From positions 15,066,001-15,130,000 of the forward strand of contig NC_135905.1 of assembly GCF_964194155.1 (NCBI RefSeq): a stretch of 64,000 nucleotides of DNA, given 5' to 3'. Below, in pieces: positions 527 to 57,900 of the stretch. The position numbers and the translations under genes were made by a program. The stretch is from Cetorhinus maximus. Its lineage: Eukaryota. Numbering within the stretch: the first letter of the stretch is position 1; every line of letters begins with the position of its first letter. The notes beneath the pieces were generated by a model. The model saw only the letters and a program-made list of their open reading frames with translations, had not been told where the DNA came from and did no database searches.

Positions 527-699
527 AAAATTGCCCGAAAAGCTTCAGAGGAGCAGATCAACACATATTTGGGCTACAGAAATAGTTCCTCTGGTTTGAA
601 GAGGTAGCTGTATCCCAGTGTCTATATGTATATACTCTACTCATTAGTAGTGAAGTACTTTAAAAGTATAAAATAAAATCATATTAACTGAATACTTAC

Positions 700-1277
700 C
701 TATCCAGGAATATATCTGGTAGGGGTGGATAAGTTTGCATGTCAGGCACACGTTCATGAACTACTACCATGACAATCGATGTAAACCCAAAGACTACAAA
801 TACATAAACAGAGCTCAGAGCTGTCTTCCAAAACTCTGGGTCAAGCCTTCGTGTTTGATATTTGTAGTGTTTACCATTCTGATATTGTTCAGTTCTCAAG
901 TCTCCACTAGAGCCACCACTGTCCCTGGAATGATCCACACCATTACACTGACAGTCTTTGCTTTGTGATGAATTACCAGCATGTGCAAAAGTACCAGCAA
1001 GGAATTCGTCACTGGCATAGCCCATCTCCACCAAGATATCCTTATGCTGCTTTTGTAGCTTCCGAATGGACACCATAAGCCTTTTAATATCACCCAACAC
1101 TTTCAGTTCTAAAGGTGGGCAACGTAAATCATATTCAGTCAAAGTTAACAAGGCAATACCATCCAGTCTGTGCTTATTACATAGAAGATCAACATATTCA
1201 CTGAAGCCTTCTTCCTTTAGCCACTTGGCGACGTGCTTGCTGGTCCAACGTCTGATATTAAACTGGCTCCCCGTCAT
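700..1277 (-). CDS. SAMD8: Sphingomyelin synthase-related protein 1 (SMSr), first coding exon: SAM domain and first TM segment; gene continues past the left edge
   Basis: Translation [41 protein letters not shown] (SAM) and [20 protein letters not shown] matches SAMD8. Acceptor ttttgcag|CTGAAACATG (exon starts 1284); donor GATAG|gtaagt at 700/699, phase 2. Confidence 0.96.
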
Positions 1278-2529
1278 GTTTCAGCTGCAAAATAAAAAAC
1301 ACAAAATGTCGAATAACTGGGTGGAAATACATATTTCATTATTTGGCAGAATATCTGATAGTGTGAAAATAATTTTTACTATGTATTAGGGAATGTTTCT
1401 AAGAATAAAGATTCCTCACTTTACTTGGGCAATTCAACGCAAGATATTGTCTGCCCCAGGAGGCCTTCTACACCATTTGAAGTGAGAATGCCCTTTAATA
1501 TAAATGGAAATAACTCCAGATACCAATCTTTAGTTCATGAAACACAGGCTAATAATAATGGCCTGCACTGCAGTCTCAGAATGAAAGAATTCTGTCTTTT
1601 CTTGCTCAAATTTTAATGCAGGCTTCAAAGTTATTGATGCAGATATCCCTCATAAAGCTGAGTCCATAGGTAAATAGATTCATTACCTTTCTGAAATGTT
1701 TTGAATCCAAGACCATGGTTTCATTAGAATTGGTACAACCACTCCCATTACACAAAAAAGATGAATTTAACGAGATGTGACTGTACTTCACTGAAAATTT
1801 GATATTTTTTTGGAAGTCACCTTTAGACTTAATCATTTTGCAAGAAACACAATTGAGCTGCAAGTGGTTTATTCGCACAAAAATATCCCAATTGACCAAG
1901 TGGGTAATCATGTTGAAGGTAAATGATGAAACCCTGCCCCTCAATACATTGCACAAGAAAAAAAAACTCTGATGTCAACCTCTTGCTTTCTCTGCCCTTT
2001 GTGACTCATGCCTTCAACCCAACCCTGCACAATGAGCAAGCTGCTCCTCAAATATAAAACGTACAATAAAACCTAGCAAACACAAGCATCTGAAATATTG
2101 TTACCAATGTCAAATAAATATCTTGATCAAGAATTTCATTAAGAACTCAGTGTTATCCTGTGACCATTGGGGATGTAAAAGAGAATGAGTAGTTCTCCTC
2201 AGACCATTAAATGTGTTCCAGAACATTAAGGAGATAATCTACACCAGGGAAGAAAGCAGAGCCAAATCAGTAACATCAAACTGTAACTAATGTTCTTCCT
2301 GAAAAACAGAAGATGCTGAGATCACCAATACAAGTCAAGCTACGAACACAGCCATACAACATTTACAGTAATGCTGCTGGAAAAACTAATTATTTACCTT
2401 TGTTCCCATCCTACATATCCAACTCAAAGAGACTAATTTACTCTCCACTTTTCAAGAGTGAAAAAAGATACACCATTTAATGGTCAGACAATATAATTAT
2501 GAAACTCTCCCAAAACTTGTCCTCAATTT

Positions 2530-19939: not shown

Positions 19940-20227
19940 ACAAGCGTTGCTCAGGCGCTCATCAGTCCAGTCAGCGATGGAGGTCTGGGTCTGGCAGCAA
20001 CCCTGCTCATACCCGCCACAGCTGGGCCTATCACAGCAGCCCCGCTGCTGCTTACTTCAAAAACTCTTGGCGGCTGTTACTTACCCCACAGACCCGCTCC
20101 CCTGTCAGGAAGCAGATTCCGCTTCTTCTGCTAAAGCCAAAGCCGAAGCCCAGCCCCTATGTCAGATGTACGCCCGGGGAAGCCCAACTGCGCTTCATCG
20201 TCAGCTCCTGCACACGGCAGCATAACA
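19940..20227 (-). promoter_or_regulatory. SAMD8: CpG-rich promoter and probable non-coding exon 1 of SAMD8 (donor at 20085/20084)
   Basis: CpG-rich non-TE stretch; minus-strand donor TGTGGG|GTAAGT at 20084-20079. The coding exon at 1284 has an acceptor 7 nt before the ATG, so an upstream exon is required. The TSS cannot be placed. Confidence 0.6.
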
Positions 20228-20740
20228 CAGCGTCCCCTGCAGCCCCGCACAACACAGAGCTCGGCTCCAGACACAGCGCCACCTGCAGCGGTGGAGGTAC
20301 AGCCAGCCCCCCCCCCCGCACGACATGGACACCGGACTCCAGGCACAGCGCCCCCTGCAGCCCCGCACAACACAAAGTTCGGCTCCAGAAACAGCGCCAC
20401 CTGGAGCGGTGGAGGTACAGCCAGCCCCGCACGACACGGACACCGGACTCCAGGCACAGCGCCCCCTGCAACAATGGAGGCACAGTCAGCCCCATACAGC
20501 GGGGAGCCGGACTCCAGACTCAGCGCCCCCTGCGGCAATGGAGGTACAGCCAGCCCCACACAACACGGACACAGGACTCCAGGCACAGCGCCACCTGCAG
20601 CAAGGGAAGTACAGCCCAGCCCCGCACAACACGGACACCGGACTCCAGACACAGCGCCACCTGCAGCAAGGGAGGTACAGCCAGCCCGGCCGAGCACGGA
20701 CACACGGACTCCAGGTACACCGCCACCTGCAGCAGTGGAT
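20228..20740 (-). repeat. GC-rich minisatellite (~65-bp unit, two 46-bp variants), 9 units each carrying a CTCF-like motif
   Basis: Core cagcgcc(a/c)cctg at 20228, 20274, 20346, 20392, 20457, 20521, 20586, 20652 and 20718 (first and last with one mismatch). Confidence 0.9.
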
Positions 20741-20802
20741 GTTCAAGTGCAGAAGAAAGGTCCTGCCCAAAATATGAACCTGTCTTTTATCTTTACAGGT
20801 GC

Positions 20803-20956
20803 TTTTTTTATTTGTTCATGGGGTTTGGGCGTCGCTGACTAAGCCAGCATTTATTGCCCATCCCTAATTGCCCTTGTTCAGAGGACATTGTTTTAAAGAG
20901 TTAACCAGATTGCTGTGGGCCTGGAGTCACCTGTAGGCCAGGCCAGGTAAAGCCGA
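20803..20956 (-). mobile_element. 3' part of tRNA-headed SINE sharing its tail with the 34.3-37.5 kb LINE
   Basis: ccagcatttattgcccatccctaattgcccttg tail followed by ctggagtcac..gtaggccag body. Confidence 0.7.
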
Positions 20957-30919: not shown

Positions 30920-31089
30920 ATGACATCAAAAGACGTAACTCAGGCCAGCGGCAATCTCACTTTTTCCAAGAACTCTGGCCCAAATGTCAACACTCCCACA
31001 GTCACAGAACTGGAGGAAATCTTACTTAACAACAGAGTTCCACTCAGCCGCATTGACGAGGTCTGGCCTAACCTATACATAGGAGACAT
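30920..31089 (+). CDS. DUSP13A: DUSP13A (MDSP) coding exon 1
   Basis: MTSKDVTQASG..TPTVTELEEILLNNRVPLSRIDEVWPNLYIGD; in-frame upstream TGA; donor GACAT|gtaagt; 170 nt, phase 2. Not in the ORF track (short). Confidence 0.9.
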
Positions 31090-31368
31090 GTAAGTACCAA
31101 ACAGCAGAAATAGTGCTGGCAAGGTCACTGTTTTGAGAAACACTGATTAGGTGAAACCTGTGAGTGGGCAGGTGGGCGGGGGGGGGGTGCGTGGTGCAGG
31201 TGTTGGGCAGGAGAAAGAAGCTAAGATCTCTTCAGAGTGTCTAAATCATCATATTTTAAATTGTGTTCAGTGTGAGGCTGGTGGAGCCTTCCAAACTCTC
31301 ACTTAAAGGCTGGCTTAATCTTTTTGTAAACTGCCCAGTTCTGGTATGTGCTTCTTATAAAAGTTTAG

Positions 31369-31437
31369 CAGCTGTATTGTGGGGGAAAGAAGAATGGAAA
31401 CAAAGGGCTTTAAGCTCTGTTTCTGTGCCAAATATGG
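31369..31437. promoter_or_regulatory. Candidate muscle enhancer in intron 1: E-box CAGCTG (31369) and CArG CCAAATATGG (31428)
   Basis: Motifs seen directly; function inferred from muscle-restricted expression of mammalian MDSP. Confidence 0.4.
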
Positions 31438-32027
31438 ACTATTTCACAAAATCAGGGGGATTCTCACTATTCTTTTATGTAGAGGTAAAAAAAAAAGGGT
31501 AGAAAAAATAACAAGGCAATCCATGCCAGTCATACAACGAGTAGAAAGCTGATGATTAGTAAAGGGATTCCTGAAGAAGAGGAATAAAAGTAATTTGCAA
31601 AACTGTAGGTAAAGTTAGAGGGGCAATAGGCTTGGTGAGGTAACCGAGAGGGGGGGTTAATTCTCCCTACCCTCTCCAGCCTTTGACTTTGTGGATAAGG
31701 ATTTCTCAGTTTGGGGATCCATGCGATTGGTCTCCACAAACATATGGTCAACCGGCTTTCCAGCAGCAGTTTGGCCATATGCAGCTCGAGGCAAAGACTG
31801 CAATTGTGTTTTTCATAATTGCCTGGATCGGTGTTCAAAAAATATCTCTGGAAACTCATTGCTAGAAAGCTTCACTGCTTTATAAAATGATGAGAAGATT
31901 GCTATGATCCAAATAATTCAACAGTGAGACAGAAAACAACTTTGAACGATCTTCAGCCAAAGAGCAATAAACCTAAGATCAATGCCTAGTACAGATGACA
32001 CTGGACATTGAGGCATGAATAAAATAA

Positions 32028-32156
32028 AAGCAAAACACTGCAGATGCTGGAAATCTGAAATAAAAAATAGAAAGTTCTGGAAAACTCTGCAAGTCTGGCA
32101 GTGGAGAGAGAAACAGAGTTAACGTTTTGAGTCAAATATGACCCTTCTTCAGAACT
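32028..32156 (-). mobile_element. Penelope-like short repeat with degenerate hammerhead motif
   Basis: Minus strand AGTT-CTGAAGA-AGGGTCATATTTGACTC-AAAAC-GTT-AACT. Confidence 0.6.
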
Positions 32157-32439
32157 TTGAAGCTTGGGTTCTGCTCCAGCATTCCTCATGTGGCGAGTTG
32201 CCCCAAGTGTAGCCAGGAAGTCCTATGAGAAGTTGAGCCTAGACCAGACCTTTTTTATCAAAGAAAACGGATAGTCAGAAAGTTGAGTCAATGCTGTCAC
32301 TCTCAATCGTTCATGATTGCATTGTGACCGGGACCCAAGTGGGGAAGCCCCTGTGGCTATCTCACCAAGCCGAACCAGGTTAGCATGTTGTGGGAAAGAT
32401 GAAGGTCAGTGTGAAACTTGACAATTAGCCACAAGGAGG

Positions 32440-32723
32440 ATTACATCCCGCCTGTGGATGAGGTTCCATGAAAAATGCGAGGGCCACCTGGGCTCTTCGC
32501 CTGCCCATCGCCAACCTTAAGGTTGGACGGTCAGCTCAGTTTATTACTTTAATTGATATTTGAACGGCCTTAATAGGCCTTTGACAGTTCATTGGGCACC
32601 CGCCGAACTGAAAATCTAAATCACGTGCGGTGATGTCGGGACGCCCGCTCGATGTCACTGCGCATCATTTTACGCCTTGGCGAGTGGGCCCCGCCCTTGC
32701 TCACCGAGCCGAAAATTCTGGCC
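32440..32723. mobile_element. Partial GC-rich Harbinger-type MITE
   Basis: Similar to 44020-44282; ends in the TIR aaaattctggcc. Confidence 0.7.
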
Positions 32724-33174
32724 AGGAGTTCTTAACTCAGAGTTTGAGAGATAAGCAGATGAACAATTCCCAGAGGTTCCCTTAAGTAATTTCTAGTGCA
32801 ATCAATGTATGTCAAAGTGAGTAAGGGAACACCAGGATGCTAAAGTAACAATAAATAAAACAACAGATGTAAATTGCCTGGCTTGCTGCTTACCCAATGA
32901 ACCACAACCTGCAAACTTATGTTTCAACAAAGTAGCAGTGTCATGGGTTATAGAGATCGGAAACATTACACTAAACACTTTGATTCATGTGTCAGGTGGC
33001 AGAATAAGCTAGAACAGTTGTTTTACCTCCAAGGGCTGACTTGATTCAAGCCAGAGGGTGTGGTGATGATTTGACATTTCTGAAACAGTTCCCTATCACT
33101 GTGGGCATGAAACTATTGGAGAATTTAGTACAAATTGACAATCCTTTCAGAGAGGCTGCTAAATATGATGATAT

Positions 33175-33650
33175 AGAATCATGGAGTCATTTACAGCACA
33201 GAAGGAGGCCATAGAGTCGACGACTGGATTGCTCTATGGAGAGCCAGCAGTCTCATTCCCCCACCCTTGTAGTGCTCTACAAGTTTATCTCTTTCAAGTG
33301 TCCATCCAATTTTCTTTTGAAATCATTCTGCAAAATGGAAAATTCCATCCATCGCCTCTGCTCGTGGGCAGCAAATTCCAGGCCACTGCACACACTAAGT
33401 AAAAGTTCTTCCTCACACCCCTCCCCCTCTATCTTTTGCCCAAAATCTTAAACCTGTGTCCCCTAGTCCTTGCATCATCAGCTGATGGGGACAGTCTTTG
33501 CTTGACTACCTTATCCAAATTTGTCATAATCTTGTGCATGCCTATCAAATCTCTCCTCAATCTCTTTTGCTCCACCTTCTCCAATCTAACCTTGTAGCTA
33601 AAATCCCTCCTCTCTGCATCCATTCTGGTAAAGCTCCTCTGCACCCGCAA
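33175..33650 (-). mobile_element. CR1 3' fragment
   Basis: RVQRSFTRM..RTRGHRFKILGKR on the minus strand. Confidence 0.75.
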
Positions 33651-33917
33651 AAATCCTCACTGGGTGCAATGAGAGGTATTTTGGGCTGGTGAGAGTAAAG
33701 GGAACATTAATTTACTTCTGGGTGTGCTGTACCTGATAAGGGAGAATTTAACACTGACACTATTGCGTCCAAATTGGGAAAGTGAGCTATTTTCATAACC
33801 AGGCTCCCTTCACCTTGAGAAGCACTTCACCCACTGTACAAGAAACAGTACTCAAATTGCATTGTAAACATGTTTGTACATTCATAAAATATTTTCTGAT
33901 GTATCTTGCCTCATTAG

Positions 33918-34135
33918 GACAATAGCCCCTGACAGATTCCGCCTGTGGAAGTTGGGTATCACTCATGTGTTAAATGCTGCACACAAACAGGTTGCGTCCA
34001 GTGGATGCCAAGATTTCTATGGTACCAGTGTGGATTATTATGGTATAGCAGCTTGTGACTTACCAAATTTTGACATTACTTCATATTTCTATTCTGCAAG
34101 CGACTATATACATCAGGCACTTGATATATTGGGAG
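33918..34135 (+). CDS. DUSP13A: DUSP13A coding exon 2
   Basis: tcattag|G ACA ATA..; DRFRLWKLGITHVLNAAHK..DFYGTSVDYYGIAACDLPNFDI closely resembles mammalian MDSP (RFELWKLGITHVLNAAHK, DLPDFDI, as recalled); donor GGAG|gtaaga; 218 nt; phases join exons 1 and 3. Confidence 0.93.
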
Positions 34136-34327
34136 GTAAGAAACCATTCTAACATTTCAAATAATCTTATAAACTGTCTTGATTCTTGATTGCATTATAA
34201 AAGGGAAAAAATGATGTGCATAATGTTCTCCCAGTAACTCAGCTGATTAAGGTAATTATTAATTGAACTATATAAACTGGAGCAGTCCTAGGTTTAATCC
34301 TCAATCTATATAGTTCTGATATTAACT

Positions 34328-37300
34328 TTTTTTTATTCGTTCAGGGGATGTGGACTTCGCTGGCTGGGCCAGTATTTATTGCCCATCCCTAGTTGCCTTT
34401 GAGAAGGTGGTGGTGAGCTGCCTTCTTGAAGTGCTGCAGTCCATGTGGTGTAGGTACACCCACAGTGCTGTTAGGGAGGGAGTTCCAGGATTTTGACCCA
34501 GCAAAGTGAAGGATATATTTCCAAGTCAGGATGACGAATGACTTGGAGGGGAACTTCCAGGTGGTGGTGTTCCCATCTATCTGCTGCCCTTGTCCTTCTA
34601 GATGGTAGTGGTCGTGGACTTGGAAGGTGCTGTCTAAGAAGCCTTGGTGAATTCCTGCAGGGCATCTTGTAGGTGGTACACACTGCTGCTACTGTGCGTC
34701 GGTGGTGGAGGGAATGAATGTTTGTGGATGTGGTGCCAATCAAGCAGACTACTTTGTCTTGGGTGTTGTCAAGCTTCTGGAATGTTGTGGGAGCTGCACT
34801 CATCCAGGCAAGTGGGGAGTATTCCATTACACTCCTGACTTGTAGATGGTGGACAGCCTTTGGGGAGTCAGGAGGTGAGTTACTCATCACAGATATTCCA
34901 AGCCTCTGACCTGCTCTTGTAGCCACAGTATTTATGTGACTAGTCCTGTTCAGTTTCTGGTCAATGGTAACCCCCAGGATGTTGATAGTGGGGGATTCAG
35001 TGATGGTAATGCCATTGAACATCAAGCAGCGATGCTTAGATTCTCTCTTGTTGGAGATGGTCATTGCCTGACACTTGTGTGGCGCAACCTTGTCAGCCCA
35101 AGCCTGGATATTTTCCAGGTTTTGTTGTATTTGAACATGGACTGCTTCTGTATTTGAGGAAGTGTGAATGGTGCTGAACATTATGCAATCATCAGCGAAC
35201 ATCCCCACTTCTGACCTTATGATGGAAGGAAGGTCATTGATGAAGCAGCTGAAGATGGTTGGGCTGAGGACACTACCCTGAGGAACTACTGCAGTGGTGT
35301 CCTGGAGCTGAGATGATTGATCTCCAACAACCACAACCATCTTCCTTTGTGCTGGTATGACTCCAACCAGCAGAGAGGTTTCCCTTTAATTCCCATTGAC
35401 TCCAATTTTGCTAGGGCCCCTTGATGCCACACTCGGTCAAATGTGGCCTTGATGTCAAGGGCAGTTACTCTCACCTCACGTTGGGAGTGCAGCTCTTTTG
35501 CCCATGTTTGAACCAAGGCTGTAATGAGGTCAGTAGCTGGGTGGCCCTGGCAGAACCCAAACTGAGCATCAGTGAGCAGGTTATTGCTAAGCAAATGCTG
35601 CTTGATACCACTATTGATGACCCCTTCCATTACTTTACTGATGATCGAGAGTAGACTGATGGGGCGGTAATTGGCCAGGTTGGATTTGTCCTGCTTTTTG
35701 TGTACAGGACATACCTGGGCAATTTTCCACATCACCAGGTTGATGCCAGTGTTGTAGCTGTACTGGAACAGCTTGGCTAGGGACACAGCAAGTTCTGGAG
35801 CTCAATTCTTCAGTACTATTGCCGGAATATTGTCAGGGCCCTTAGCCTTTGCAGTATCCAATGGCTTCAGCCATTTCTTGATATCACGTGGAGTGAATTG
35901 AATTGGCTGAAGACTGGCATCCGGAGGAGGCCGAGATGGATCATCCACTCGGCACATTTGGCTGGAGATTGTAACAAATGCTTCAGCCTTATCTTTTGCA
36001 CTGATGTACTGGGCTTCTCCACCATTGAGGATGTGAGAATGGGGATATTTGTGGAGCCTCCTCCTCCAGTGAGTTGTTTAATTGTCCACCATCATTCATG
36101 GCTGGATGTTGCAGGACTGCAGAGCTTAGATCTGATCCATTGATTGTGGGATCGCTTAGCTCTGTTATCACTTGCTGCTTATGCTGTTTGGCACACAAAT
36201 AGTCCTGTGTGATAGTTTGACCAGGTTGACACCTCATTTTTAGATATACCTGGTGCTGCTCCTGGCATGCCCTCCTGCACTCTTCATTGAACCAGGGTTG
36301 ATCCCCTAGCTTGATGGTAATGGTAGATTGGGGGATATGCCAGCCCATGAGGTTACAGATTATGCTCAAGTGCAATTCTGCTGCTGCTAATGGCCCACAA
36401 TGCCTCATGGATGTTCAGTCTTGAGTTGCTAGATCTATTCAAACTCTATCCCATTTAGCACGATGGAGGGTACCCTCGATATGAAGGTGGGACTTCGTCT
36501 CTACAATGACTGTGCAATGGTCACTCCTATCGATAATGTCATGGACAGATGCATCTGTGGCAGGCAGGTTGATGAGGATGAGGTCAAGTATGTTTTTCTC
36601 TCTTGTTGGTTCCCTCACCACCTGCCGCAGTCTAGCAGCTATGTCCTTTAGGACTCGGCCAGCTCAGTCAGTAGAGGTGCTACCGAGCTACTCTTGGTGA
36701 TGGACATTGAAGGCCCCCACCCAGAGTACATTCTGCATCCTTGCCACCCTCAGTGCTTCCTCCAAGTGATGTTCAACATGGAGAAGCACTGATTCATCAG
36801 CTGAGGGAGGGCGGTATGTGGTAATGAGCAGGAGGCTTCCTTGCCCATGTTTGACCTGATGCCATGGGACTTCATGGGGTCCAGACTCGATGTTGAAGAC
36901 TCCAAGAGCAACTCCCTTCTGATGAATACCACTGTATCACCACCTCTGCTGCGTCTGTCCTGCCAGTGGGACAAGACATACCCAGGAATGATGGTGGTGG
37001 AGTCTGGGACATTACCTATAAGATATGATTCCGTGAGGATGACTATGTCAGGCTGTTGCTTGACTAGTCTGTGAGATAGTTGTTCCAATTTTGACACTAG
37101 ATGTTAGTAAGGAGGGCTTTGCAGGGTCGACAGGGCTGAGGCTGCCATTGTTGTTTCTAGTGCCTAGGTCAATGCCAGGTGGTCCGTCCGGTTCCATTCC
37201 TTTTTTGAGACTGTAGCAGTTTGATAGAACTGAGTGGCTTGTGAGGCCATTTCAAAGGGCATTTAAAAGTCAACCAATTTGTTGTGAGTCTGGAGTCACA

Positions 37301-37518
37301 TGTAGGCCAGATTTCCTTCCCTAAAGGGCATTCGCGAACCAGATGGGTTTTTACAACAATCAGTTCATGGTCATCTCATTAGACTTTTAATTCCAGATTT
37401 TATTGAATTCAAATTCCACCATCTGCCGTGGTGGGATTCGAACCCCAGTCCCAGGAACATTACCCTGGGTCTCTCAGTTACTAGTCCAGCAACAATACCA
37501 CAATGCCATTGCCTCCCC
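34328..37518 (-). mobile_element. Full-length single-ORF CR1-group LINE (APE endonuclease + RT) with tRNA-like Pol III head; decayed copy in DUSP13A intron 2
   Basis: EN: SHRLVKQQPDIVILTESYL, PTREKNILDL; RT: NYRPISLLSIISK, LDIKATFDRVWH, VPQGSVLSP, MFADD. A-box-like 37508-37498, B-box 37444-37434, A-rich tail, TSD ATTAACT at 34321-34327 and 37519-37525. Confidence 0.9.
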
Positions 37519-38084
37519 ATTAACTGCCTTAATTAGTCACTCCTGAGTTTGTACATCTATCAGAGGCTCTCTACTTGGCTTTACCACCCTTGGTTAGGAC
37601 AGGGAAATCAATCAGGACTCCATCTCCTGATGAATATTCAGTAATTACTTTTGGAACTGCATGTTAGGGAGTTCAAGAACCTTTCAAGTTTAACCAATCT
37701 TTATGTATCAAGGATTGACCTGGCCATGTCGGTGACACAACAATGTCAAGTTTCAGACTTTGGTCTTATAATTGGTTGAAAAACAAAAACGGGCATTGAA
37801 GCTGGGTTTCATTAAAAATAAAAAGAGACCATCAATTCACCGACTGCCTGCACTTAAATCTGAATTCCAGAGCTTAAAATCCAACATGTTTCACAACCTG
37901 TGCCTCTGTTTGTTTCACCTCATCTCTTTTCCCAAAAAAAAACCCCATTAAATCCCATTTGGAGGTGGTGGGTGTGAGGTGGGATGGCAGGTTAGTGGTG
38001 TCAACCTTTTAAAAAATGGAACAGAAACAAAAATAGCTGGAAAACTTCAGCAGGTCTGACAGCATCTGTGGAGAGGAAGACAGA

Positions 38085-38121
38085 GTTAACGTTTCGAGTC
38101 CGTATGACTCTTCATCAGAAC
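38085..38121 (-). ncRNA. Minimal hammerhead-ribozyme-like motif within a Penelope-like repeat (38023-38121)
   Basis: Minus strand GTT-CTGATGA-A-GAGTC-ATACG-GACTC-GAAAC-GTT-AAC: core CUGAUGA/GAAA, 5-bp stem II, short stem I, palindromic AACGTT in place of stem III. Activity unknown. Confidence 0.55.
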
Positions 38122-38399
38122 AGACTTTTAAAAAATCGACTTCCATTGTCTCAAATGAAGGCTTGCTGTTATTTAGTGAATTGAAAGCTCAAATAATGAA
38201 GACTGATCTCTGATGTGTGCAAATATATCAAACAGAAGGGCTTCTTCTGAACAATGACCTCTGGAGACACAGAGCACTCAGAAGAATAAATTCATCAGCA
38301 ATGTATCAAGGTTTAATTTACCGCTGCAGTAATTCAAGATATCTAAAAATGCATTCAGAGTAATCACAAGAATTAGACTGACTGACAACTGGGGACAAA

Positions 38400-38765
38400 T
38401 AGGACGCTTAAAATCGTGAAGGGTTTCGAAGAGGGAATAATGAGGAACGGTTTCCAACGTCTGAAATATTGCTTGACCAGAGGGCACAGATTTAAGGCAA
38501 TTTCCAAAAGAACCTGAGGTGATATGGGGAAAACTGTTTTATGTAATGAGTAGTTAGGATTTGGATTGCCTGATAGGGCGGTGAGTACAGATACAATATT
38601 TATCTTCAAAAGGGAATTGGATAAATATCTGAAAGAGAAATACTTGCAGGGATATGAGGGAAAGATTGGGACAGTGGGACTAACTGGATTGTTCTTTGAA
38701 AGAGCCAGTGTAGGCTCAATGGGCCGAATGCCCTCGTTCTGGGCTATACGCTGATCCTATGAAAA
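38400..38765 (+). mobile_element. CR1 3' fragment
   Basis: accagagggcacagatttaag.., FKRELDKYLKEK. Confidence 0.75.
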
Positions 38766-38865
38766 TGCTGAACCGTTGTTATTCAGTGAAACTTTTCAAC
38801 ACAATACTGAACATGAGAACGGAATAATTTAAACATTTTTAATTCACAGGAAGTTTAATATTTTA

Positions 38866-40070
38866 ACTTAGAAGCAGCTCAGAGAAGGTTCACTTGACTG
38901 ATTCCTGGGAAGAAGGGGTTATCTTATTAGGAAAGGTTGGAGAGGTTGGGCCTGTATCCACTGGGGTTTAGAAGAACGAGAGGTGACCTTATTGAAACAT
39001 ATAAGATCCTGAGGGGACTTGATAGGGTGGATGCTGAAAGAATGTTTCCCCATGTGGGAGAGTCTAGGGGCAGAATTTTTAGGTTGGTGTGCGGGCGTGT
39101 GCTGAACCCAATCAAACGCAAAATCACACGAGATGACATCGGGTGAGTGTCCCGGCATCACCCAGCGCTTGCGCGATATTTCGGTCAGCCGGCACGCGCA
39201 GAAGTCGGAAGCACGCCTGCCGACAATTAAAAGGCCAGTTAGTATAATTAAAGTTGCAATTGTCCCCGATTTTTCGTGGTCCCTCCAACCCTTACGGTAG
39301 GCGGACGGGCAAATCGGCCAGGCGGACTTTGCATTTTTCGTGAAACCTCATCCAAGGGCAGGATGAAGTTTCCGTTATTAAACTAAAAAGAATAAAAATC
39401 TAAAGACAGAATTTTTATCATATATATGTTCAGGTGACGGATTGTGATGCTTGGACAGTTTTCTCCTGATTTTAAAAACTTTATTTAATTGTTTTCAGGT
39501 CTTCAGTTCCCCGAGGCAGCTCTCTGCCTTCGGGGAGCTTTCATTCAGCGCTCGCTCACCCCCGCATTTACGTCAGCGCCCACCCTCCTCCCACCCCCAC
39601 TCCGGCAGCGCTGAGCATTTCAGCGCGCGCTTCACGCTGGCCGGCCGTTAATTGGCCAGCCAGTGTGAAATCACAGTTGGGGGCCGATCGCAATCGGTGG
39701 TCTGTTCCCCAACTGAACCCGAACCCGAACCCGAACCCACCGATCTAAAAATTCTGCCCTATAACTATAGAGACGCAATTTAGAAATAAGGAGTCTCGCG
39801 TTTAAGATGGAGATGAGGAGGAATTCCTTCTCTCAGAGGGTCGGTAGTCTTTGGAATTCTCTACACCAGAGAGCAGTGGAGGCTGGGTCATTGAATATAT
39901 CCAAGGCAGAGGTAGATAAATTCTTGACTAACAAGGGAGTCAAAGGTTATTGCAGGTAGGTGTGAACATGTAGTTGAGGCCACAATCAGATCAGCCATGA
40001 TCTTATTGAAGGGTGGAGCCAGCTCGAGGGGCTGAATGGCCTCCTCCTGCTCCTAATTCATATGTTTGTT
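38866..40070 (+). mobile_element. CR1 3' fragment interrupted by a MITE
   Basis: LERLGLYPLGFRRTRGDLIETYKIL..GESR, then CR1 sequence resumes after 39762. Confidence 0.85.
39068..39759. mobile_element. PIF/Harbinger-type MITE nested in CR1
   Basis: TIRs gggcagaatttttaggttggtg / caccgatctaaaaattctgccc (20/22 match); 3-bp TSD TAG/TAT. Confidence 0.85.
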
Positions 40071-40129
40071 TGCATTTTATCTGGGCCAAAGCAAAACATA
40101 CTAAACCCATTTTTTTAAAAATTGTCTAG

Positions 40130-40590
40130 TAACAACAACTTGCATTTTTACAGCATCTTTAACAAAGTAAGACATCCTAGGCGCTTGACAGGAGCATTAT
40201 CAAACAGAATTTGAGTGATATTATGAGATATTAGGGCAGGTGATCAAAAGCTTGGTCAAAAAGATAAATTTTAACAAGTATCTTAAAGAAGGAGAGAGTT
40301 CTGGAGGTGGAGAGGTTTAGGGAGGGAATCCCAGAGCACAGAGCAGCTGGAGGCACGGCCATCAAAGGTGAGTGAAGGAAATTGGGGATTCTCAAGAGAC
40401 CAGAATTGGAGGGGTGCAGATATCTCAGGGGGTTGTAGGACTGGAGGAGATGACAGAGATGGAGAGGGGTGAGGCCAAGGATTTGAAAACAAGGATGAAA
40501 ATTTTAAAACTGAGGAGTTGCTGGACCGGGAGCCCATGTAGGGGCGATGAAGAGATGGGACTTGATACGAGTTAGGATACAAACAGCAGA
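40130..40590 (-). mobile_element. L2-type LINE 3' end
   Basis: aacaacaacttgcatttt tail; aggagttgctggaccgggagcccatgtagg; similar to 50198-50530. Confidence 0.65.
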
Positions 40591-41771
40591 GTATTGATAC
40601 TGCAGGCGCTATCAATACATTCATATTTCATTAATCATGGAACATTCAAATATAACAGAAAAGATATGGGTGGATTTATGACTAAGCACTTCTCGTGTAG
40701 GGTGGCAAAATTCAGCTCAAACCCAAATGTACCTGAATTATGCTATAAGAAAAGACTAATTGACAACCTGCCCCTTGGTTGGTGAAGCTTAGAGCTCATG
40801 ATTAATTTGCAATGCAAAATATGGCTCAGCTGTAAGAACAGGCAAGGAGACTCAATACTGAAATGTTAATTTAAAACCTAGCAGTCAAAGTGTGAAAACA
40901 CCAAACATGGATGGGACAATTCCCCAAAATGTACAAAATTTATGCAAAATTGATTTTTTTTTGTGCCGTATTGAGAAACAGGATTATTCAGATTGTTGAT
41001 GAGTTAATTCCCTCGTGAATAACTCACTTTGTTCAATTCTTCTTCTTTGTGTTTGAGAGAGATATTTGAAAAACAAAGCTCCTACTGCAGTTATGTCATC
41101 CACATGAGCTTAGCGAAGGAGACGGTGCATGAATACATTAAAGACAATTTGACACACTGGTCTCTCTCTGCTAGCCAATTTTCTGCGCTGAGTCAGGTGG
41201 CACTAAGAAATATCACACTGAGCTCTGTTTTTGTGTGTATCTCACGCAAAGCAGGGTTAACGCCAACCAGGCATTGTGTCCAGCCTTGGTTGAAAATGTT
41301 TCTTCTCTCAAAGTTAAGCTGAGCTACACCTCTTGAATCCCAAACTCAAGTTCCAATCTCTGTTCCCTCCTGCCCACCAGAAATCTGGGCATCTCCATGG
41401 CAACAGGTTTCCATGGATACCTTGGGGGTGGCATATTTTGATGCAATTACATGCAAATCAGCAGAGGTGGAAGAGTTCCTCATTGAAGCTTGACATTTGC
41501 CTGTTTGATAGATTTTTTAAAAAACAATGAATATTGTTCACGAAAGTGCCTGTAGAGGGAATGAGAGGCACATTTGGTGTTGAACAAGGAAGCTGTCTCA
41601 TGTATTTGTGATTGGTTTTAGAAATATTTTTATGTCAGGTATTGCTCCGTAAACTAATATTAACAAATGTACTTTAATCTTAATAGGAGTTTTGTTATCT
41701 CAGCAGAAGCTTTTTTGATTCAATCAGAAGAAAGGAAACATATAAACCTCACAAAAGGTCAAGTACATGAA

Positions 41772-41798
41772 ACACACACACACACACACACACACACA
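41772..41798. repeat. (AC)n microsatellite
   Basis: About 13 AC units. Confidence 0.95.
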
Positions 41799-42447
41799 AA
41801 GTAATTAATTAAAGGCGCGTATTTCTACATACCACAATTAAAAATCAAGTTAGCAATTTCTTCAAAGGATTACTGCAATTTGAGGCTGTGATGACTGCCA
41901 CTTTAAGACCAGTTCAACTGAATAGAGGATCATTTGATTTGTTCAACCAACGTGTGGCTAGCGCAGGGAAATAAATTCTAGGGCGGGGTTTCCTAGGGAA
42001 CAAAAATGGCTGTGAGAGGGGCTGGCTGGATACAAGCAGCCATGGAAGCGCTCGTGTCAATAAAGTTTGTTTTGCTTGACTAAGGAGCCTCCCACAGTGC
42101 GATTCTACAGAGACAAGAGTCAATTTTAGTGTCATGGTGTAAACTTTGTTCTTGGAAGCTGTGATATTGATTTGCGTGTACACATTACACTTTGTTCATT
42201 TACGGTACTTACAAAGGTTTTGGAATGTCTCCATCTCACTACAGGTGTTACGCTATTACCTGTTTCTGTGTCACATTTTTAAAAATTAGTATTAACAAAG
42301 GGAATAAACCCAATTATTACCGCTCTATATAGAAAGTTCCTCACCAAAAGGCCACAGCATCAAATTGATTCCAGCAATCATATTTAAAACCAAATTAAAT
42401 CCAAAAGCCAACCTGACCACTGGACTTAAGGACCTGGTTAAGGACAA

Positions 42448-43158
42448 GGCTGGATTTTACACTCCCCTGTCAGCAGGTTTGAAGGCAGGGAGCTGTGTAA
42501 AATGCAGCGTCTGACCTCCCGCCCACCCTCGACTTGTCTCTCATTTTATGGGGGCAATGGAGACAATTAATGGCCATTTAATTGTCTCACCCCACCCCCC
42601 CACCTCCCCCCCACCCGCTATCTTATCTTAGCCGCGGCAGAGGGAGGCCCACACCAAGTAGGTAAGCCAGCAGCTTTTACTGGGCAGGCTGGTGTCAGGC
42701 AAGGGGGCGAAAACAACTCCTTTGGGGGTCCCTTGTGCCCATCAGTCACCCCACCACACTCCCCCAAGTCATACCCCTCTTTAACTCTCCCTGCGCCAGT
42801 CTCTCAAACCTACCCACCTCCCACCTCACGCCCATCGCTGGGACCTTCCAGCCAGGACCCATCAATATACCAGACTTATCTTCAAACCGGCCTCCATAAC
42901 CTACTCTTCTTCAGGGACTGGCTTAGTCCCAGCGGTGATCACCACTCGGACCTGAGGTTGCTGGGACTACAGAGCTGCCGGCCAATCAGAAGCAGCTCTC
43001 TAAGGTGGGGCTTGCTCCCTAGATGCCCTGGTCCAGTTAACACCCTGCCAAGCATAAACTGGCTGTGGGGTAGCTGGCTTTCTTGTGGACGGGCTCACAA
43101 CTGACTTTTTATGCAGTGTGGGGGTTACAGGGAACACAGCACCTCATAAAATTTAGCC
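42448..43158. mobile_element. Harbinger-type MITE (related subfamily)
   Basis: TIRs ggctggatttta / taaaatttagcc; 3-bp TSD CAA/CAA; GC-rich interior. Confidence 0.7.
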
Positions 43159-43624
43159 CAATCAAAATCTAACGGATTTCAGGAAGGGACAGCAATTATA
43201 TCTTGTGGACTTAAGGGAGCACTCAGGTTACATACTTGAGTGTTTTATTGCTCCTGTCATAAAGCACACACTAGATCATTTCTTATGTAGAGAAATTGTG
43301 ATGTTTACACATAGTCTCATTCTGGGCCAGAAAGTGGGTCACAACAGGGTCAAAGGGCAGAGGACAATGTAGGAGGGAAAGCAGAGTGAACCCTAGCAAG
43401 GAGGAGGAGGAAGAGTACAAAAATAATCACTGTGTCTCAAGATTAACACCATGAATGGCAGTGTCAGAGGTACCATCTTTCAGGGAAGATGTTAAACTGA
43501 GGCTCATCTGCCTGTTCAGATGGATGCAAAAGATCCCATGTCCCTTGGCACAATTTGAAGAAGAGCAGGAAAGTTCTCCCAATGTCCTGCCATATCTTTA
43601 GTGTTCTGCCACTGAACGTCCACT

Positions 43625-44282
43625 GGCCTGAATTTTTAGCTGGGTGGGCAGGCGTGATTGGCAGGCCCCGGGTTGGCCGGGAACCGGACTGCTGACCACG
43701 ATCGGCCCCCGACTGTGATTTCACGCTGGCTGGCCAGTTAACGGGCAGCCAGTGTGTAGCGCGCGCTGGGAAGCTCAGAGCTGCTGGGGTGGGGACAGGA
43801 AGAGGGCAGGCGCTGACGTCAGCGCGGGCACGGGCGGGCACTGAGAGAAATCTCTCTGAAGGCAGAGAGCTGCCTCAAGGAGCTGCAAACCCAAACATGT
43901 TCCAATAAAGTTTTAAAAAAGCAGAAAAAAAATGTTCGAGCATCACAATCAGGCACCTGAAAATATAGATGATCAAAATGCTGCCCACAGATTTTTATTT
44001 TTATTTTATCTCATAACCTTGGATGAGGTTTCATGAAAAATGTACAAGTTGCCTGGCCAATTTGACGTCCGCCAACTGTAAGGTTGGACAGGCAATGAAA
44101 TACAGCAGACAACTGCACCCTCTTAACTGTCGGCGGGAGCACTTCTGACTTCGTGCACCCGCCAGGTGTAATATCGCATGAGTGCACGGTGATGTCGGGA
44201 CGCTCGCCCAATGTCATCTCGCGCAATTTCATGCCCGATCGGGTTGCGCACACGCCCACCCGACCAACGTAAAATTCAGCCC
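43625..44282. mobile_element. Harbinger-type MITE, inverted relative to 39068-39759, next to a DeuSINE-like fragment (~43455-43600)
   Basis: TIRs ggcctgaatttt / aaaattcagccc; TSD ACT/ACT. Confidence 0.82.
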
Positions 44283-45196
44283 ACTGAGTCTAACAAGGAC
44301 TAAGGCCACACTCCTGATAAAGAAAGGGAGTCCCATCCCACAGAGCCATCCAGACGATTCAGCATTGCATCAGGATCCTGCCGCCCTTGTAAATTATGAA
44401 CAACATTGATTTTCAAGGCCAAAGTTTTTCAAACATCTGTTGACACACTTGAGATGCTGGTGAGAAGTAATTGAAATGCAGTTTTTAATCACCTGCTGGT
44501 CAGCAGAGGGAGCACTAGAGCAACATTCACAGGATTTCACAGATCAGATCCTGGACATACCACCCCACTCCATTCCTTACCTCCTGAAGGTTTTTACCTC
44601 TGGCTGGGTTGGTTCCACAGGTACCAGTCGCCTACTGGCATGTTGCCCCTGTGGGCGTTATTCATGGTCAAGCTGTTGAGCAGAAGGTGGGACAGCAGAG
44701 TTAAGCCTGACCCCTGCCCTCCCAATTAGCAAGATCAAGCAATTTACTCGTCCCCTCCGATTATCGTCACCCATCCTGCAGTCCTGGCTGTGATCTACCT
44801 CAGCCCAGACTGTCAATAAAACCTGGGCCCTTCCTGACATCCACAGCCGAATACTCACAGGCTATCCCACTGGGGGAACATTCTGTTTCAATCTAATGGG
44901 TCAATCCCACAGGAATTATTTAATGTTCAGCCAAGTGACTGATGTCCTGTATTTTGTACATTGTAGTTTATGGAGTAAAACAAAGTGAAATCATGACATA
45001 TTTTCATCTGTTGAGACTGGTTAATAACGCCTACAGCTTGCATTTCGGTATCTGTTAACTAGGAGGTTTTGTGCTGTCATATTGTAAAGATGGTGTTGCA
45101 AATGACAAAAGATGGTACAATGTGCAAAATTAAACTGTGCAGACGTTAAACATTCTGTTTTGTTTTTTCCTCCTCCCACCCCCCCCACCTCCCCAG

Positions 45197-45396
45197 GGAA
45201 GATCTTTGTACACTGTGCTTTTGGATACAGCAGATCAGCCTCTTTAGTGTTGGCCTACTTGATGATTTATCATCACCTTTCACTGCTCGATGCAGTTAAG
45301 ACAGTGACTGCTCGCCGACGTATTTTTCCCAATCGAGGTTTTTTAAGGCAGTTACGGAATTTTGACATAAAATTACAACAGGAAAGGATTGTTTGA
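45197..45396 (+). CDS. DUSP13A: DUSP13A coding exon 3 (catalytic HCAFGYSRS); spliced product 195 aa
   Basis: ccccag|GG AAG ATC; [33 protein letters not shown]; TGA ends 45396; 170+218+200 = 588 nt. Position head-to-head with SAMD8 matches mammalian synteny. Confidence 0.93.
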
Positions 45397-53308: not shown

Positions 53309-53478
53309 ATGTCAACAACTGAATCTCTATCCGGAGACAGTCCTGATCCCTCCATTGGTAACACCATCTGTGATTCAAAAACTCCTTCTGTTATAGAACT
53401 GGAGAGTATCCTGGAGAACAGCAGAGCCCAGCTAAACCATATTGATGAAGTATGGCCTAACCTATACATCGGAGATTT
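53309..53478 (+). CDS. Second DUSP13/DUSP29-family phosphatase, coding exon 1 (alternative in-frame ATG at 53252)
   Basis: accATG; MSTTESLSG..KTPSVIELESILENSRAQLNHIDEVWPNLYIGD; donor GATTT|gtaagt; 170 nt, same as DUSP13A exon 1. Confidence 0.88.
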
Positions 53479-54544
53479 GTAAGTATACTTACACATGCTC
53501 CAGAGATACCACACTTGTAACAAACAGCACTCGGGGCAAGTAACTCAGTACAGATTTATTTAAGTGTATTCATTGATGCTATAAATCGGTACAAATTAAA
53601 TTACTTTAGCGCATTGTTTTAAACTGTTTACTATAGAAGGAAATACTCAGTGATAGTTCTATGTCAATGATATAATGGATAAGTTAGAGAACAAATTAAG
53701 AAGTTGTAAATTTCCTACAGTTCACACAGGTGCTGACTGCAGTTTGCACTAGAACTAGCTTCTGAAAGCTATGTGATAGCTTGTCAATTGGGAATCTGTG
53801 GTGATGGGAGGGGATAAAGATGTTGTCATTTGGTCTCTAGTGATTCATGGTGATTGTTGGGGTAAGACTGCTAGCACAATGACCTGTTTCTTGTGAGGAG
53901 AGTGAGGCTTTTGATGAATATTTTGTTAGTAAGAATCCATCTAGTAGCCCAGATGAGAACCATCACCATTCCCTCCCCAATGATGTTCACTAAATCTATC
54001 AAAGCTGGCACTTATGTACACAACTCTGGACCAGAAACATAGCAACAGGGGGTGGCCGTTCAACGCCTTGATCTTGTTCCACCATTCAATTAGATCATAG
54101 CTAACAAAACTGGAGGTAGGATGAGAGAACAACAACCTGAGCTTCTCCATCAGTGAGTCACCCTTAATCTTCCGCAGTTCAATTCTCATAACAAGACCTG
54201 GCTTTGTGTCAATCCCCTCCTGCATATACGATATTTTGTGGTTACTCAGTTAAGACTCAAACAGTGGCTTCTATTTTCTGGATCAACAACAAATCTGAAA
54301 TGCAAACATACACATTAGTTGCGAAAAATATTACATTTTTGCTCCATTTTCCATCCTCCTTATCTGGAGGTTCCACGGGCAGTGTCAATTCTCCATTAAC
54401 TCACTGAGCTTGTACATGAGGTTAGACAGTGAATGTCTGTTGACTATTTGACTGTGGGGGGCATGACAGGCAATCCTGATCTCATCTAACGTTTTTCACT
54501 GGGAATAAAATCAGAAACATGAACTTTGGCCAATTCCTCTCTCA

Positions 54545-55465
54545 GAAATTTACAGCACAGAAGGAGGCCATTCGAGGCAGCTGAAAAGGAGCCATCCAGT
54601 TTACTCCCACTTTCCAGCTCTTGGTCTGTTATTTTCTAGCTTACGGCACTTCAAGTGCATATCTGCCTCTACCACCCTTTCAGGCAGTGAGTTCCAGATC
54701 CCCACTATCTTCTGAGTGGAAAAGTTTCCCCTGAAGTCCCCCCTAAACTTCCTCCAACTGACCCTAAATCTAGGCCCCGTTATGGACCCTTCAATAGGGC
54801 CTTCCAATTCACTCTATCCAGGTCCCACATAATCTTACACAATTTTAATTAAGCCTACTTTGTGACAAAGAAAATAACCCAGCCTATCCAATCTTTACTC
54901 ATAATTAAAATTCTCCAGTCCATGCAACATCCTTGTAAATCTCCTCTGTACTCTCTCAAGTGCAATCAGGTCCTTCCTGTAGTGCAGTGACCAGAACTGC
55001 ACCCAGTACCCCAGCTGTGATCTAATTAGCATTGTCTATACTTCCAGCGTAACCTCCCAGCTCTTATATTCTATGCCTCGGCTAATAAAGGACAAGTATC
55101 CTGTGTGCTTTCTTGACCACCTTCTCTATCTGTCCAGCCACCTTCCGGGATCTGTGGACATGCACTCCAAGGGTCTTCTGTTTTTCTACGCTTCTCAGTA
55201 TCCTATTATTTATTGTGTATTCCTTTTCCTGGTTAGGTTTCCTGAAATTCGTTGCCTCACACTTCTCCAGATTGATCTCCATTTGTCACTGTTCCACCCA
55301 CCTGACTAGTCCATTGATATCTTCCTGCAGTCTACAGCTTTCTTCTTTATAATTGTCCATACAGCCAATTTTTGTAGCATCTGCAAACCTCCTAACATTC
55401 CCCTATGTTCAGGTCCAAATCACTGATATATACCACGAAAAAGAAGGGACCTAGTACTGAGCCGT
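54545..55465 (-). mobile_element. CR1 3' fragment
   Basis: RGNFSTQKIVGIWNSLPERVVEA; LGVHVHRS. Confidence 0.8.
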
Positions 55466-55592
55466 CTGGAAGTATCACTGGCTGTGCTACTCAGTGCACA
55501 GCAGAGACTGTGCCACAGGCTTTCCCGATCTTTACAGTAAATTGTACAGCATCACAGTGTTGTCTTACATGATCATTCTGTTCTCGTTATAG

Positions 55593-55810
55593 GGTGATAG
55601 CCCATGACAAAAAACAATTAAGGAAGATGGGGATCACTCATGTGTTAAATGCTGCACATTCCAAATGGGGTAGCGTGGGAGATCAAATCTTCTACGGCAA
55701 GAAAATAAATTACTATGGCATAGTGGCTGACGATTCCCCAGAATTTGACCTGAGTATATATTTCTACACTGCAGCTGAACAGATACATCAAACACTGAAT
55801 ACTCCAGATG
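55593..55810 (+). CDS. Second DUSP13/DUSP29-family phosphatase, coding exon 2
   Basis: gttatag|G GTG ATA; IAHDKKQLRKMGITHVLNAAH..YYGIVADDSPEFDLS; donor GATG|gtaagg; 218 nt. Confidence 0.92.
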
Positions 55811-56258
55811 GTAAGGCATGTTTTGACATTCATTGCATTTAGATGTGCTAAATAGGCAGTGCTGCTGTTGGTAAATTTCTTTGCTATATGGAAATACCCA
55901 ATTAGTAAAGAATGGTAGCATGCCCTAGTTTATGAAATATAAACATTGACCTTTTTGGTACAGTCATGTGGTGTGGTCCATTGGTACATCATGGACTGAC
56001 AAAGAGCCACAGAGGGAAGCTTCATCTCCGTATGAAGCTTCTGATATCAGAGGGAGGTGCCGGGCAAAGGCTAGATGTTCAGCTGGTTAGGGAGAGAAGC
56101 AGAGCTAGAAGGGAAGTCAACCCAGTGACAGTTGTTGAGCTATTAATGACCTGCTACAGTAATGGTTGAAACCTGACAACATTTTGAGAGGCCTGCAATT
56201 ATCCTTCAGTCGGTAAATTCCAAGGCTCCACTGGGAGCACAGGGTATTGCAGAATTTA

Positions 56259-56261
<3 letters not shown>

Positions 56262-56298
<37 letters not shown>
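56262..56298. repeat. (GT)n microsatellite
   Basis: About 18 GT units. Confidence 0.95.
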
Positions 56299-56299
<1 letters not shown>

Positions 56300-56437
56300 A
56301 CAATGCTCACACATGCTACAGATTAAAATCACAAATTGTTCATGTAAATGCACAGTGAGTAAGTTGGAAAAAGAGAGATGCGGACAAATATTATTGCTTT
56401 ATATTGTAATCACGGAATCCCTAGCTTGGCCCAGTGT

Positions 56438-56613
56438 CAATGTTCCCTCTAAGCTGCATGGTCACACAGCAGCCTGAAAACTCCTGCGTAGGCTGCACAC
56501 GAGTCAGCCCCTTTAAGCTGCTGTGTGTGACAGCCACGCAAAAAATAAATTAAAGGGCCCACGCACTCAAACAAATCACCTGCACATTCCCAAAAGCATT
56601 AGAGGCTACATTG
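56438..56613. mobile_element. Small MITE, possibly hAT-type
   Basis: TIRs caatgttccctctaa / ttagaggctacattg (13/15); TSD not clearly preserved. Confidence 0.45.
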
Positions 56614-57812: not shown

Positions 57813-57900
57813 GTTTAGAATGCAACATTTATGTGACTCGATTCCGATTGCCTGTAGCTGAATAATCCAAACACTCAGCCGTTATATCTTTCTCTTGCAG

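What the first reader, a model, noticed from the sequence alone, without database searches (positions are those of the whole stretch)
20228..20740. Minisatellite of nine co-oriented CTCF-like sites between the SAMD8 promoter and the DUSP13 cluster
Seen: nine units with spacings 46, 72, 46, 65, 64, 65, 66 and 66 bp. On the minus strand a typical unit reads GGCTGTACC-N6-GCTGCAGG(T/G)GGCGCTG; unit 6 is GCCGCAGGGGGCGCTG. Established: the CTCF core is about CCASYAGRKGGCRS, and ZF9-11 bind a TGCAGTNCC-like upstream motif 5-6 bp away. Six units carry an upstream-like motif at 6-bp spacing, the two 46-bp units have lost it, and unit 9 is degenerate there. All point toward SAMD8. The motif is better conserved than the linkers. 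Inference: a repeat-amplified, possibly copy-number-variable and methylation-sensitive boundary that separates a housekeeping promoter from tissue-specific phosphatase genes.
Basis: partly seen in the sequence, partly recalled or inferred. Interest (0 to 1): 0.7.

Follow-up and report, generated by a model that had tools for sequence, protein, structure and literature searches.

The report
Amplified CTCF-like sites at SAMD8 promoter
Nine head-to-tail copies of a DNA unit resembling a binding site for the genome-folding protein CTCF sit just in front of the likely first exon of the SAMD8 gene in this (likely shark) genome, and same-direction repeats of the motif stand in front of about a dozen other likely everyday genes, so the repeat likely multiplies a promoter-activating site rather than walling off neighbouring genes; binding is untested.

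Summary
The nine-unit repeat is real, and a second species carries it, rearranged, at the same place. Its cores are moderate CTCF-type motifs: they lack the 5' C and A, and score 11-17 bits on a recalled matrix against 22 for canonical sites. The claimed ZF9-11 upstream motif is 2-3 bp off register. The array lies inside the SAMD8 CpG island, 143 bp before the likely exon-1 donor and 10 kb from the first DUSP start codon, so it reads as promoter rather than boundary. It belongs to a class. Of 33 other loci with the motif repeated, 14 lie directly upstream of a likely first exon, 12 of them in the gene's direction; 0 of 29 control repeats do (judged by eye). A 17.5-kb satellite sharing 26 of 28 bp abuts SMARCD1. 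Best reading: tandem amplification of the forward, TSS-proximal CTCF site that activates housekeeping promoters in mammals. No RNA, ChIP or methylation data were available. The scan noted this class before at MEAF6 (e1-9551748); the orientation bias, matched controls and SMARCD1 link are added here.

The parts
20228..20740 (-). Minisatellite of nine units (46-72 bp), GC 67%, CpG o/e 0.59; motifs point in the direction of SAMD8 transcription
20228..20243 (-). Core 1 (closest to the gene; A at core position 11; 13.1 bits on recalled matrix)
20274..20289 (-). Core 2 (11.4 bits)
20346..20361 (-). Core 3 (17.4 bits, best); position 9 shows the G/T wobble in organism B
20392..20407 (-). Core 4 (12.0 bits)
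20457..20472 (-). Core 5 (position-2 C lost; 4.4 bits, likely unbound)
20521..20536 (-). Core 6 (11.0 bits)
20586..20601 (-). Core 7 (14.5 bits)
20652..20667 (-). Core 8 (14.5 bits)
20718..20733 (-). Core 9 (11.7 bits); the base at 20720 matches the array consensus in sample S1 contigs
20085..20227 (-). Likely core promoter and non-coding exon 1 of SAMD8; donor GT at 20084-20083; start site not mapped; about 4% diverged in organism B against about 8% in the intron
   Evidence: sequence; inferred, no RNA
699..1285 (-). First coding exon of SAMD8 (SMSr): SAM domain, acceptor just before the ATG at 1277
20803..20950 (.). High-copy interspersed repeat (likely a SINE; label recalled) bounding the array on its upstream side
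   Evidence: depth and loose ends
30920..45393 (+). First atypical DUSP gene (DUSP13/26/DUPD1 group), ATG about 10.2 kb from the array
53309..58133 (+). Second atypical DUSP gene

Best explanation
The repeat is a tandemly amplified CTCF-like motif, oriented in the direction of SAMD8 and lying in its CpG island just upstream of the likely first exon, and it likely works as a cluster of promoter-bound CTCF sites that helps keep this housekeeping promoter open and active. Shown: repeat, orientation, position in the island, presence in two species, recurrence of the layout at other loci. Inferred: a single promoter CTCF site with its flanks was duplicated by slippage or unequal exchange (65-bp unit, a 46-bp deletion variant, then a 118-bp pair); several moderate sites, bound through ZF3-7 only, together give occupancy; the unit closest to the start site recruits Pol II, the outer units would limit upstream antisense transcription and encroachment from the adjacent interspersed repeats. 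Any insulation from the DUSP genes would be a side effect.
For: Last core ends 143 bp before the likely exon-1 donor; no other CpG-rich bin lies between it and the coding exon. 8 of 9 units p<3e-5 on the recalled matrix; only one other site of 12 bits or more in the 64 kb. Of 33 other loci with the motif repeated, 14 lie directly upstream of a likely first exon, 12 sense and 2 antisense (binomial p=0.013), against 0 of 29 composition-matched control repeats (p=3e-5; stricter count 11 of 33 against 1 of 29, p=0.003). A mechanical CpG-flank rule gives 12:4 against 3:9, p=0.02. Loci on C1-C10: 21 against 2 and 8 for the two controls. Unsearched core position 2 is C in 13 of 16 promoter arrays against 3 of 19 others, position 5 is Y in 13 of 16 against 4 of 19. 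All nine cores keep their CpG. In mouse, forward CTCF a median of about 79 bp upstream of the TSS activates housekeeping genes, and promoter sites more often lack the canonical motif (PMC12695661).
Against: No binding, RNA or methylation data. Cores lack C1 and A3; that double-mismatch class is not enriched genome-wide (3239 found against 2390-3370 expected, canonical 1768 against 450-750). Core no better conserved than linker within the array (p=0.41) or against organism B (3 of 48 against 22 of 132, p=0.09). First-exon calls were by eye and not blind; 5 of the 12 sense cases are non-coding exon-like only, one without a donor. The 19 'other' arrays include about 8 members of one 33-bp family, so that contrast is inflated. 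Single promoter sites show no clear bias (3 sense, 2 antisense). The SMARCD1 array has lost many core CpGs (115 CG against 53 TG and 35 CA), so amplification can run without upkeep of the site.
Confidence: 0.5

Rival explanations
1. Neutral by-product: an ordinary single promoter CTCF site was caught in a minisatellite, because GC-rich, G-skewed, unmethylated promoter DNA slips and recombines; the extra copies do nothing.
For: Core not significantly more conserved than linker. Copy numbers range from 2 to about 479 with no pattern. The SMARCD1 array shows CpG decay. The sense strand of these promoters is G-rich (skew 0.18). A CpG-containing motif survives best in islands.
Against: Control repeats of the same composition and CpG count do not sit upstream of first exons (0 of 29 by eye). 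Unrelated units of 26-66 bp repeatedly contain the motif. The array is kept in two species about 8% apart.
Confidence: 0.23
2. The reader is not (only) CTCF but CTCFL/BORIS in the germ line, or another long zinc-finger protein that reads an extended element, core plus GGAG at positions 22-25; binding would also favour amplification.
For: SAMD8 and SMARCD1 units share 26 of 28 bp, 10 of them beyond the CTCF core; the 20-mer occurs at only these two loci, about 0.03 expected by chance. GAG at 23-25 in 6 of 16 promoter arrays against 2 of 86 single sites (p=1e-4; 4 of 14 without the two discovery loci, p=0.003; post hoc, 11 positions looked at). The known ZF1 GAG is at 19-21. Sharks have testis-biased CTCFL (PMC7471279); CTCF+BORIS co-bind clustered promoter sites and simple tandem repeats.
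Against: The two arrays found later by another search show GAG at 22-24 or not at all. The units are G/A-rich. The shared stretch could come from transfer between the two loci. CTCFL was not looked for in this genome.
Confidence: 0.15
3. One reading: a high-affinity, ZF9-11-anchored insulator that shields SAMD8 from the DUSP13 cluster.
For: It lies between head-to-head genes; tandem co-oriented CTCF sites can insulate, and one paper gives linkers of 2-7 bp in curated insulators, which would admit the 3-bp linker here (PMC12885311 passages). CTCF orientation rules hold in skate (PMC10115646 passages).
Against: Structure puts ZF9-10 contacts at C-9, C-10, T-12; the units have A/G, T, T there. 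In this genome the U-to-core gap is 8 in 12 and 9 in 25 of 100 listed matches, 6 in 1. Cores are moderate. The array is 143 bp from exon 1's end and 10 kb from a DUSP start. The same layout occurs at unrelated promoters.
Confidence: 0.12

Closest known systems
Forward, TSS-proximal CTCF sites that activate housekeeping promoters in mouse (PMC12695661; passages and sections 16-17 read)
   Same: Forward orientation, position just upstream of the gene start, housekeeping targets, less canonical motif.
   Different: Single sites there, tested by depletion and reporters; here 9 (up to hundreds of) tandem copies, in a likely shark, untested.
Clustered CTCF sites (2xCTS) and CTCF+BORIS-bound simple tandem repeats (PMC4562119 passages; PMC5007689 abstract and section 6)
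   Same: Closely spaced motifs at active promoters; tandem repeats that build clusters; spacing of tens of bp.
   Different: Described for human and mouse; no class of promoter-upstream, gene-oriented minisatellites in the parts read; BORIS occupancy untested here.
CTCF-bearing tandem repeats DXZ4/Dxz4 and DXPas34 (search listing only; details recalled)
   Same: Tandem repeat carrying co-oriented CTCF motifs.
   Different: X-inactivation structures, single loci; this is a recurring promoter layout of unrelated units.
U-motif insulator sites, such as IL3 and HS4 (PMC12885311 passages; PMC10484683 sections 12, 16 and passages)
   Same: CTCF core with an upstream element of similar letters.
   Different: The upstream element here is 2-3 bp too close and the core lacks C1 and A3.

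Membership tests
CTCF binding site (core) | Match to the ZF3-7 core motif | tested here: met
   8 of 9 units p<3e-5, 11-17 bits, on a matrix recalled from memory; C2, A6, G7, G10, C12 kept in 8-9 of 9. Moderate only: canonical sites median 22 bits.
CTCF binding site (core) | 5' CCA triplet (ZF7) | tested here: not met
   Position 1 is G in 9 of 9, position 3 is T in 8 and C in 1; only C2 is kept, in 8 of 9.
CTCF binding site (core) | In vivo CTCF occupancy | not testable with these tools
   No ChIP run among the 24 runs listed.
Extended CTCF site (U motif, ZF9-11) | C-9, C-10, T-12 (or shifted one base further out) upstream of core position 1 | tested here: not met
   0 of 9 units fit either register; the element sits at -7 to -15. 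Gap 6 in 1 of 100 listed genome matches, gaps 8 and 9 in 37.
Extended CTCF site (ZF1 motif) | GAG at core positions 19-21 | tested here: not met
   GAG is at 23-25.
Promoter-activating CTCF site | Forward orientation relative to the gene | tested here: met
   9 of 9 units in SAMD8's direction; 12 of 14 other promoter-upstream loci sense.
Promoter-activating CTCF site | Within about 200 bp upstream of the TSS of a broadly expressed gene | tested here: inconclusive
   143 bp from the likely exon-1 donor; TSS and expression not mapped.
Promoter-activating CTCF site | Promoter activity falls on CTCF loss or motif mutation | not testable with these tools
   Needs a reporter or depletion.
Insulator / TAD boundary | Cohesin co-occupancy, contact insulation, enhancer blocking | not testable with these tools
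   No Hi-C or ChIP available.
VNTR minisatellite | Head-to-tail units of 10-100 bp | tested here: met
VNTR minisatellite | Copy number varies between individuals | tested here: inconclusive
   Only one sample of this species covers it; organism B differs in arrangement, copy number unresolved.

The most novel reading that the evidence does not exclude
This lineage has a genome-wide class of 'promoter amplifiers': the forward CTCF/CTCFL site of housekeeping promoters, in an extended form with a downstream GGAG, is independently and repeatedly expanded into tandem arrays of 2 to about 480 copies, the bound factor itself favouring expansion in the germ line, so that copy number acts as a heritable dial on housekeeping gene output.
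Probability: 0.2. Interest if true: 0.75.

Novelty: new variant of a known kind. Interest (0 to 1): 0.52.

Why it matters
If the arrays are bound, they show that CTCF's loop-independent promoter-activator role, so far tested in mouse cells, is old and leaves a visible mark in a cartilaginous fish genome. They also offer a natural dose series (2, 5, 9, 16, hundreds of sites at comparable promoters) for asking how site number and orientation set housekeeping expression, and why these sites get amplified. If they are neutral, they still mark promoter CTCF sites as birthplaces of minisatellites.

Tried and rejected
No RNA holder and no ChIP run listed, so start site and expression stay open. Target-capture reads X21 do not cover the array. 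Rfam on 19000-22000: no match. Coding role: long open frames cross the GC-rich repeat but unit lengths of 46, 64 and 65 break any frame; not pursued with a protein search. Dispersed-repeat origin: the DNA search of the own genome found only this locus and the C40 satellite (the tool warns that this is a lower bound). The tool's read-backwards control was dropped: Markov expectation shows it about 10-fold too low for these motifs; shuffled, CpG-matched controls were used instead. U-motif check on 30+30 single sites was too small to inform. Nora 2017 was not held. PMC9878928 passages gave no position for the ZF1 motif; PMC13470930 passages count spacing from a different core edge. Literature searches for this class in sharks listed no paper describing it; only listings were seen, most subscription papers are not held, and no supplements were opened.

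Full report
Setting. The window is G000:C28:15066001-15130000 of a 3.99-Gb genome, likely a shark (inferred from its repeats and size). A minus-strand exon at 699-1280 encodes the SAM domain of SMSr/SAMD8 (E 1.7e-80). Plus-strand exons encode two atypical dual-specificity phosphatases with start codons at about 30920 and 53309; their best solved relatives are DUSP26, DUSP13 and DUPD1, so the name DUSP13 rests on recalled synteny.

The observation. Nine minus-strand units with core GCTGCAGG(T/G)GGCGCTG lie at 20228-20740 with the stated spacings. The six long units are 64-72 bp; the two 46-bp units are deletion variants, and the 46+72 pair is itself duplicated (family D1). Contigs of sample S1 tile the array with one substitution, which restores the consensus in unit 9; this may be the source sample. 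The claim that the motif is better kept than the linkers does not hold up: 6 of 96 against 29 of 294 mismatches, p=0.41.

Is it CTCF? Numbering the core as in the crystal structure (PMC10484683, sections 12 and 16 and passages read), the units keep positions 4-16 and C2 but have G at 1 and T or C at 3. On a JASPAR matrix recalled from memory, 8 of 9 score 11.0-17.4 bits (p<3e-5), unit 5 scores 4.4, and 30 canonical single sites have a median of 22.0. Canonical cores are enriched in this genome (1768 against 450-750 expected) but the class lacking C1 and A3 is not (3239 against 2390-3370). The upstream element is off register: ZF9-10 read C-9, C-10 and T-12, while the element lies at -7 to -15. 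Among 100 of 103 listed genome matches of an upstream motif plus core, the gap is 8 in 12, 9 in 25 (16 of them one family, by eye), 6 in 1, and 4 in 47 (46 one dispersed family, by eye). One paper allows linkers of 2-7 bp (PMC12885311 passages), so weak use is not excluded. The downstream GAG is at 23-25, not at the ZF1 position 19-21.

Position. The array lies inside the only CpG-rich stretch of the first 20.5 kb. Its last core ends 143 bp before a GG|GTAAGT donor at 20085/20084, and the coding exon has an acceptor just before its ATG. This exon 1 is inferred; no RNA was available. The first DUSP ATG is 10.2 kb away. All nine cores keep their CpG, array CpG o/e 0.59, which fits an unmethylated germ line.

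Conservation. Runs of organism B, 30 substitutions in 395 bp of intron and 11 in 284 bp of exon/promoter, carry the array at the same place; one contig runs from the intron into unit 3. Joints going back 176 and 369 bp and unrelated inserts show another arrangement. Of 25 differing places in 20314-20493, 3 fall in cores (positions 3, 4 and the position-9 G/T wobble), 3 of 48 against 22 of 132, p=0.09; these may be comparisons of non-orthologous units.

It is one of a class. A 20-mer from the unit occurs 50 times in the genome, 5 here and 45 in a 37-bp, 479-copy, 17.5-kb satellite on C40, about 0.03 expected. That satellite ends about 90 bp before the ATG of SMARCD1, with the motif in the gene's direction; the two units share 26 of 28 bp. 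I then searched for repeated AGRKGGCGCTR and fetched all 33 other loci in the listed rows (first 100 of 296 and first 100 of 141 matches). By eye, 14 of 33 lie directly upstream of a likely first exon: 12 in the gene's direction (L059, L060, L061, L063, L064, L070, L072, L075, L078, L085, L089, L090) and 2 against it (L067, L082). Pfam supports Tom7, ATG2, PXA, Nop53, WD40 and, weakly, API5; the names PIGO, SNX19, SDF2, SEH1L and MED15 are recalled, and L061 and L075 had no Pfam hit. L069 (EHD) and L073 lie downstream of an exon 1. Two shuffled motifs matched for composition and CpG gave 2 and 8 loci on C1-C10 against 21. I fetched 29 of their 35 listed loci, leaving out five further copies of one C29 family and the C282 satellite; two had no flank to score. 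None lies upstream of a first exon by eye, three lie inside genes, one (L200) is uncertain. Tests: 14 of 33 against 0 of 29, p=3e-5; stricter 11 of 33 against 1 of 29, p=0.003; orientation 12:2, p=0.013; mechanical CpG-flank rule 12:4 against 3:9, p=0.02, a rule that wrongly counts L080 and misses L059. In the 16 promoter arrays the unsearched position 2 is C in 13 and position 5 is Y in 13, against 3 and 4 of 19 others, though about 8 of the 19 are one family; position 1 is C in only 5 and position 3 is A in only 2. Two arrays found by another search add one sense case (L223) and one ambiguous one (L224). Single promoter sites split 3 sense, 2 antisense.

Mechanism. In mouse, CTCF bound in forward orientation a median of about 79 bp upstream of the TSS activates housekeeping genes without cohesin, sites further upstream repress antisense transcription, and promoter sites more often lack the canonical motif (PMC12695661, passages and sections 16-17). 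Clustered sites mark active promoters and are shared with BORIS, also on simple tandem repeats (PMC4562119 passages; PMC5007689 abstract and section 6), and sharks have testis-biased CTCFL (PMC7471279 passages). The layout here matches that promoter class. I therefore read the array as an amplified promoter CTCF site (0.5), ahead of a neutral by-product (0.23), a CTCFL or other zinc-finger element (0.15) and an insulator (0.12). Against function: no excess conservation of cores, and CpG decay in the SMARCD1 satellite.

Novelty. Each ingredient is known; the recurring, gene-oriented amplification at promoters was not found in the paper searches (listings only). Verdict: new variant of a known kind, interest 0.52.

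Noticed in passing
G000:C40:7773683-7791244 (L044-L046): 37-bp satellite, about 479 copies, ending about 90 bp before the SMARCD1 ATG; shares 26 of 28 bp with the SAMD8 unit; core CpG partly decayed (115 CG, 53 TG, 35 CA).
   Followed up: partly
G000, many contigs, 12 or more copies on C29 (rows): Dispersed family (about 46 of 100 listed rows) with a near-perfect CTCF upstream motif only 4 bp before a canonical core; possibly a transposon spreading CTCF sites.
   Followed up: no
G000:C24 and small contigs (rows): Family of 16 listed sites with upstream motif and core at the canonical 9-bp gap, 12 of them on C24.
   Followed up: no
L059, L078, L085, L090, SAMD8 and SMARCD1 arrays: GGAG at core positions 22-25 in 6 of 16 promoter arrays, against GAG at 23 in 2 of 86 single sites; post hoc.
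   Followed up: partly
L065, L066, L074, L079, L088, L091: A common 33-bp minisatellite family carrying the 3' half of the CTCF motif without C2, not beside promoters.
   Followed up: partly
L223 (C29:17.93 Mb) and L224 (C13:44.83 Mb): Two more arrays of the motif, 5 and 7 copies; the first upstream of a likely exon 1, the second between two CpG-rich flanks.
   Followed up: partly
window 20720: Assembly has C, sample S1 contigs have G at full depth: allele or assembly error.
   Followed up: no
window 44497-44515 (+): Only other CTCF-like site of 12 bits or more in the window, inside the first DUSP gene (recalled matrix).
   Followed up: no
window 5192-6148 (-), 27645-28343 (+), 34474-35385 (-): LINE reverse-transcriptase remnants (RVT_1).
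   Followed up: no
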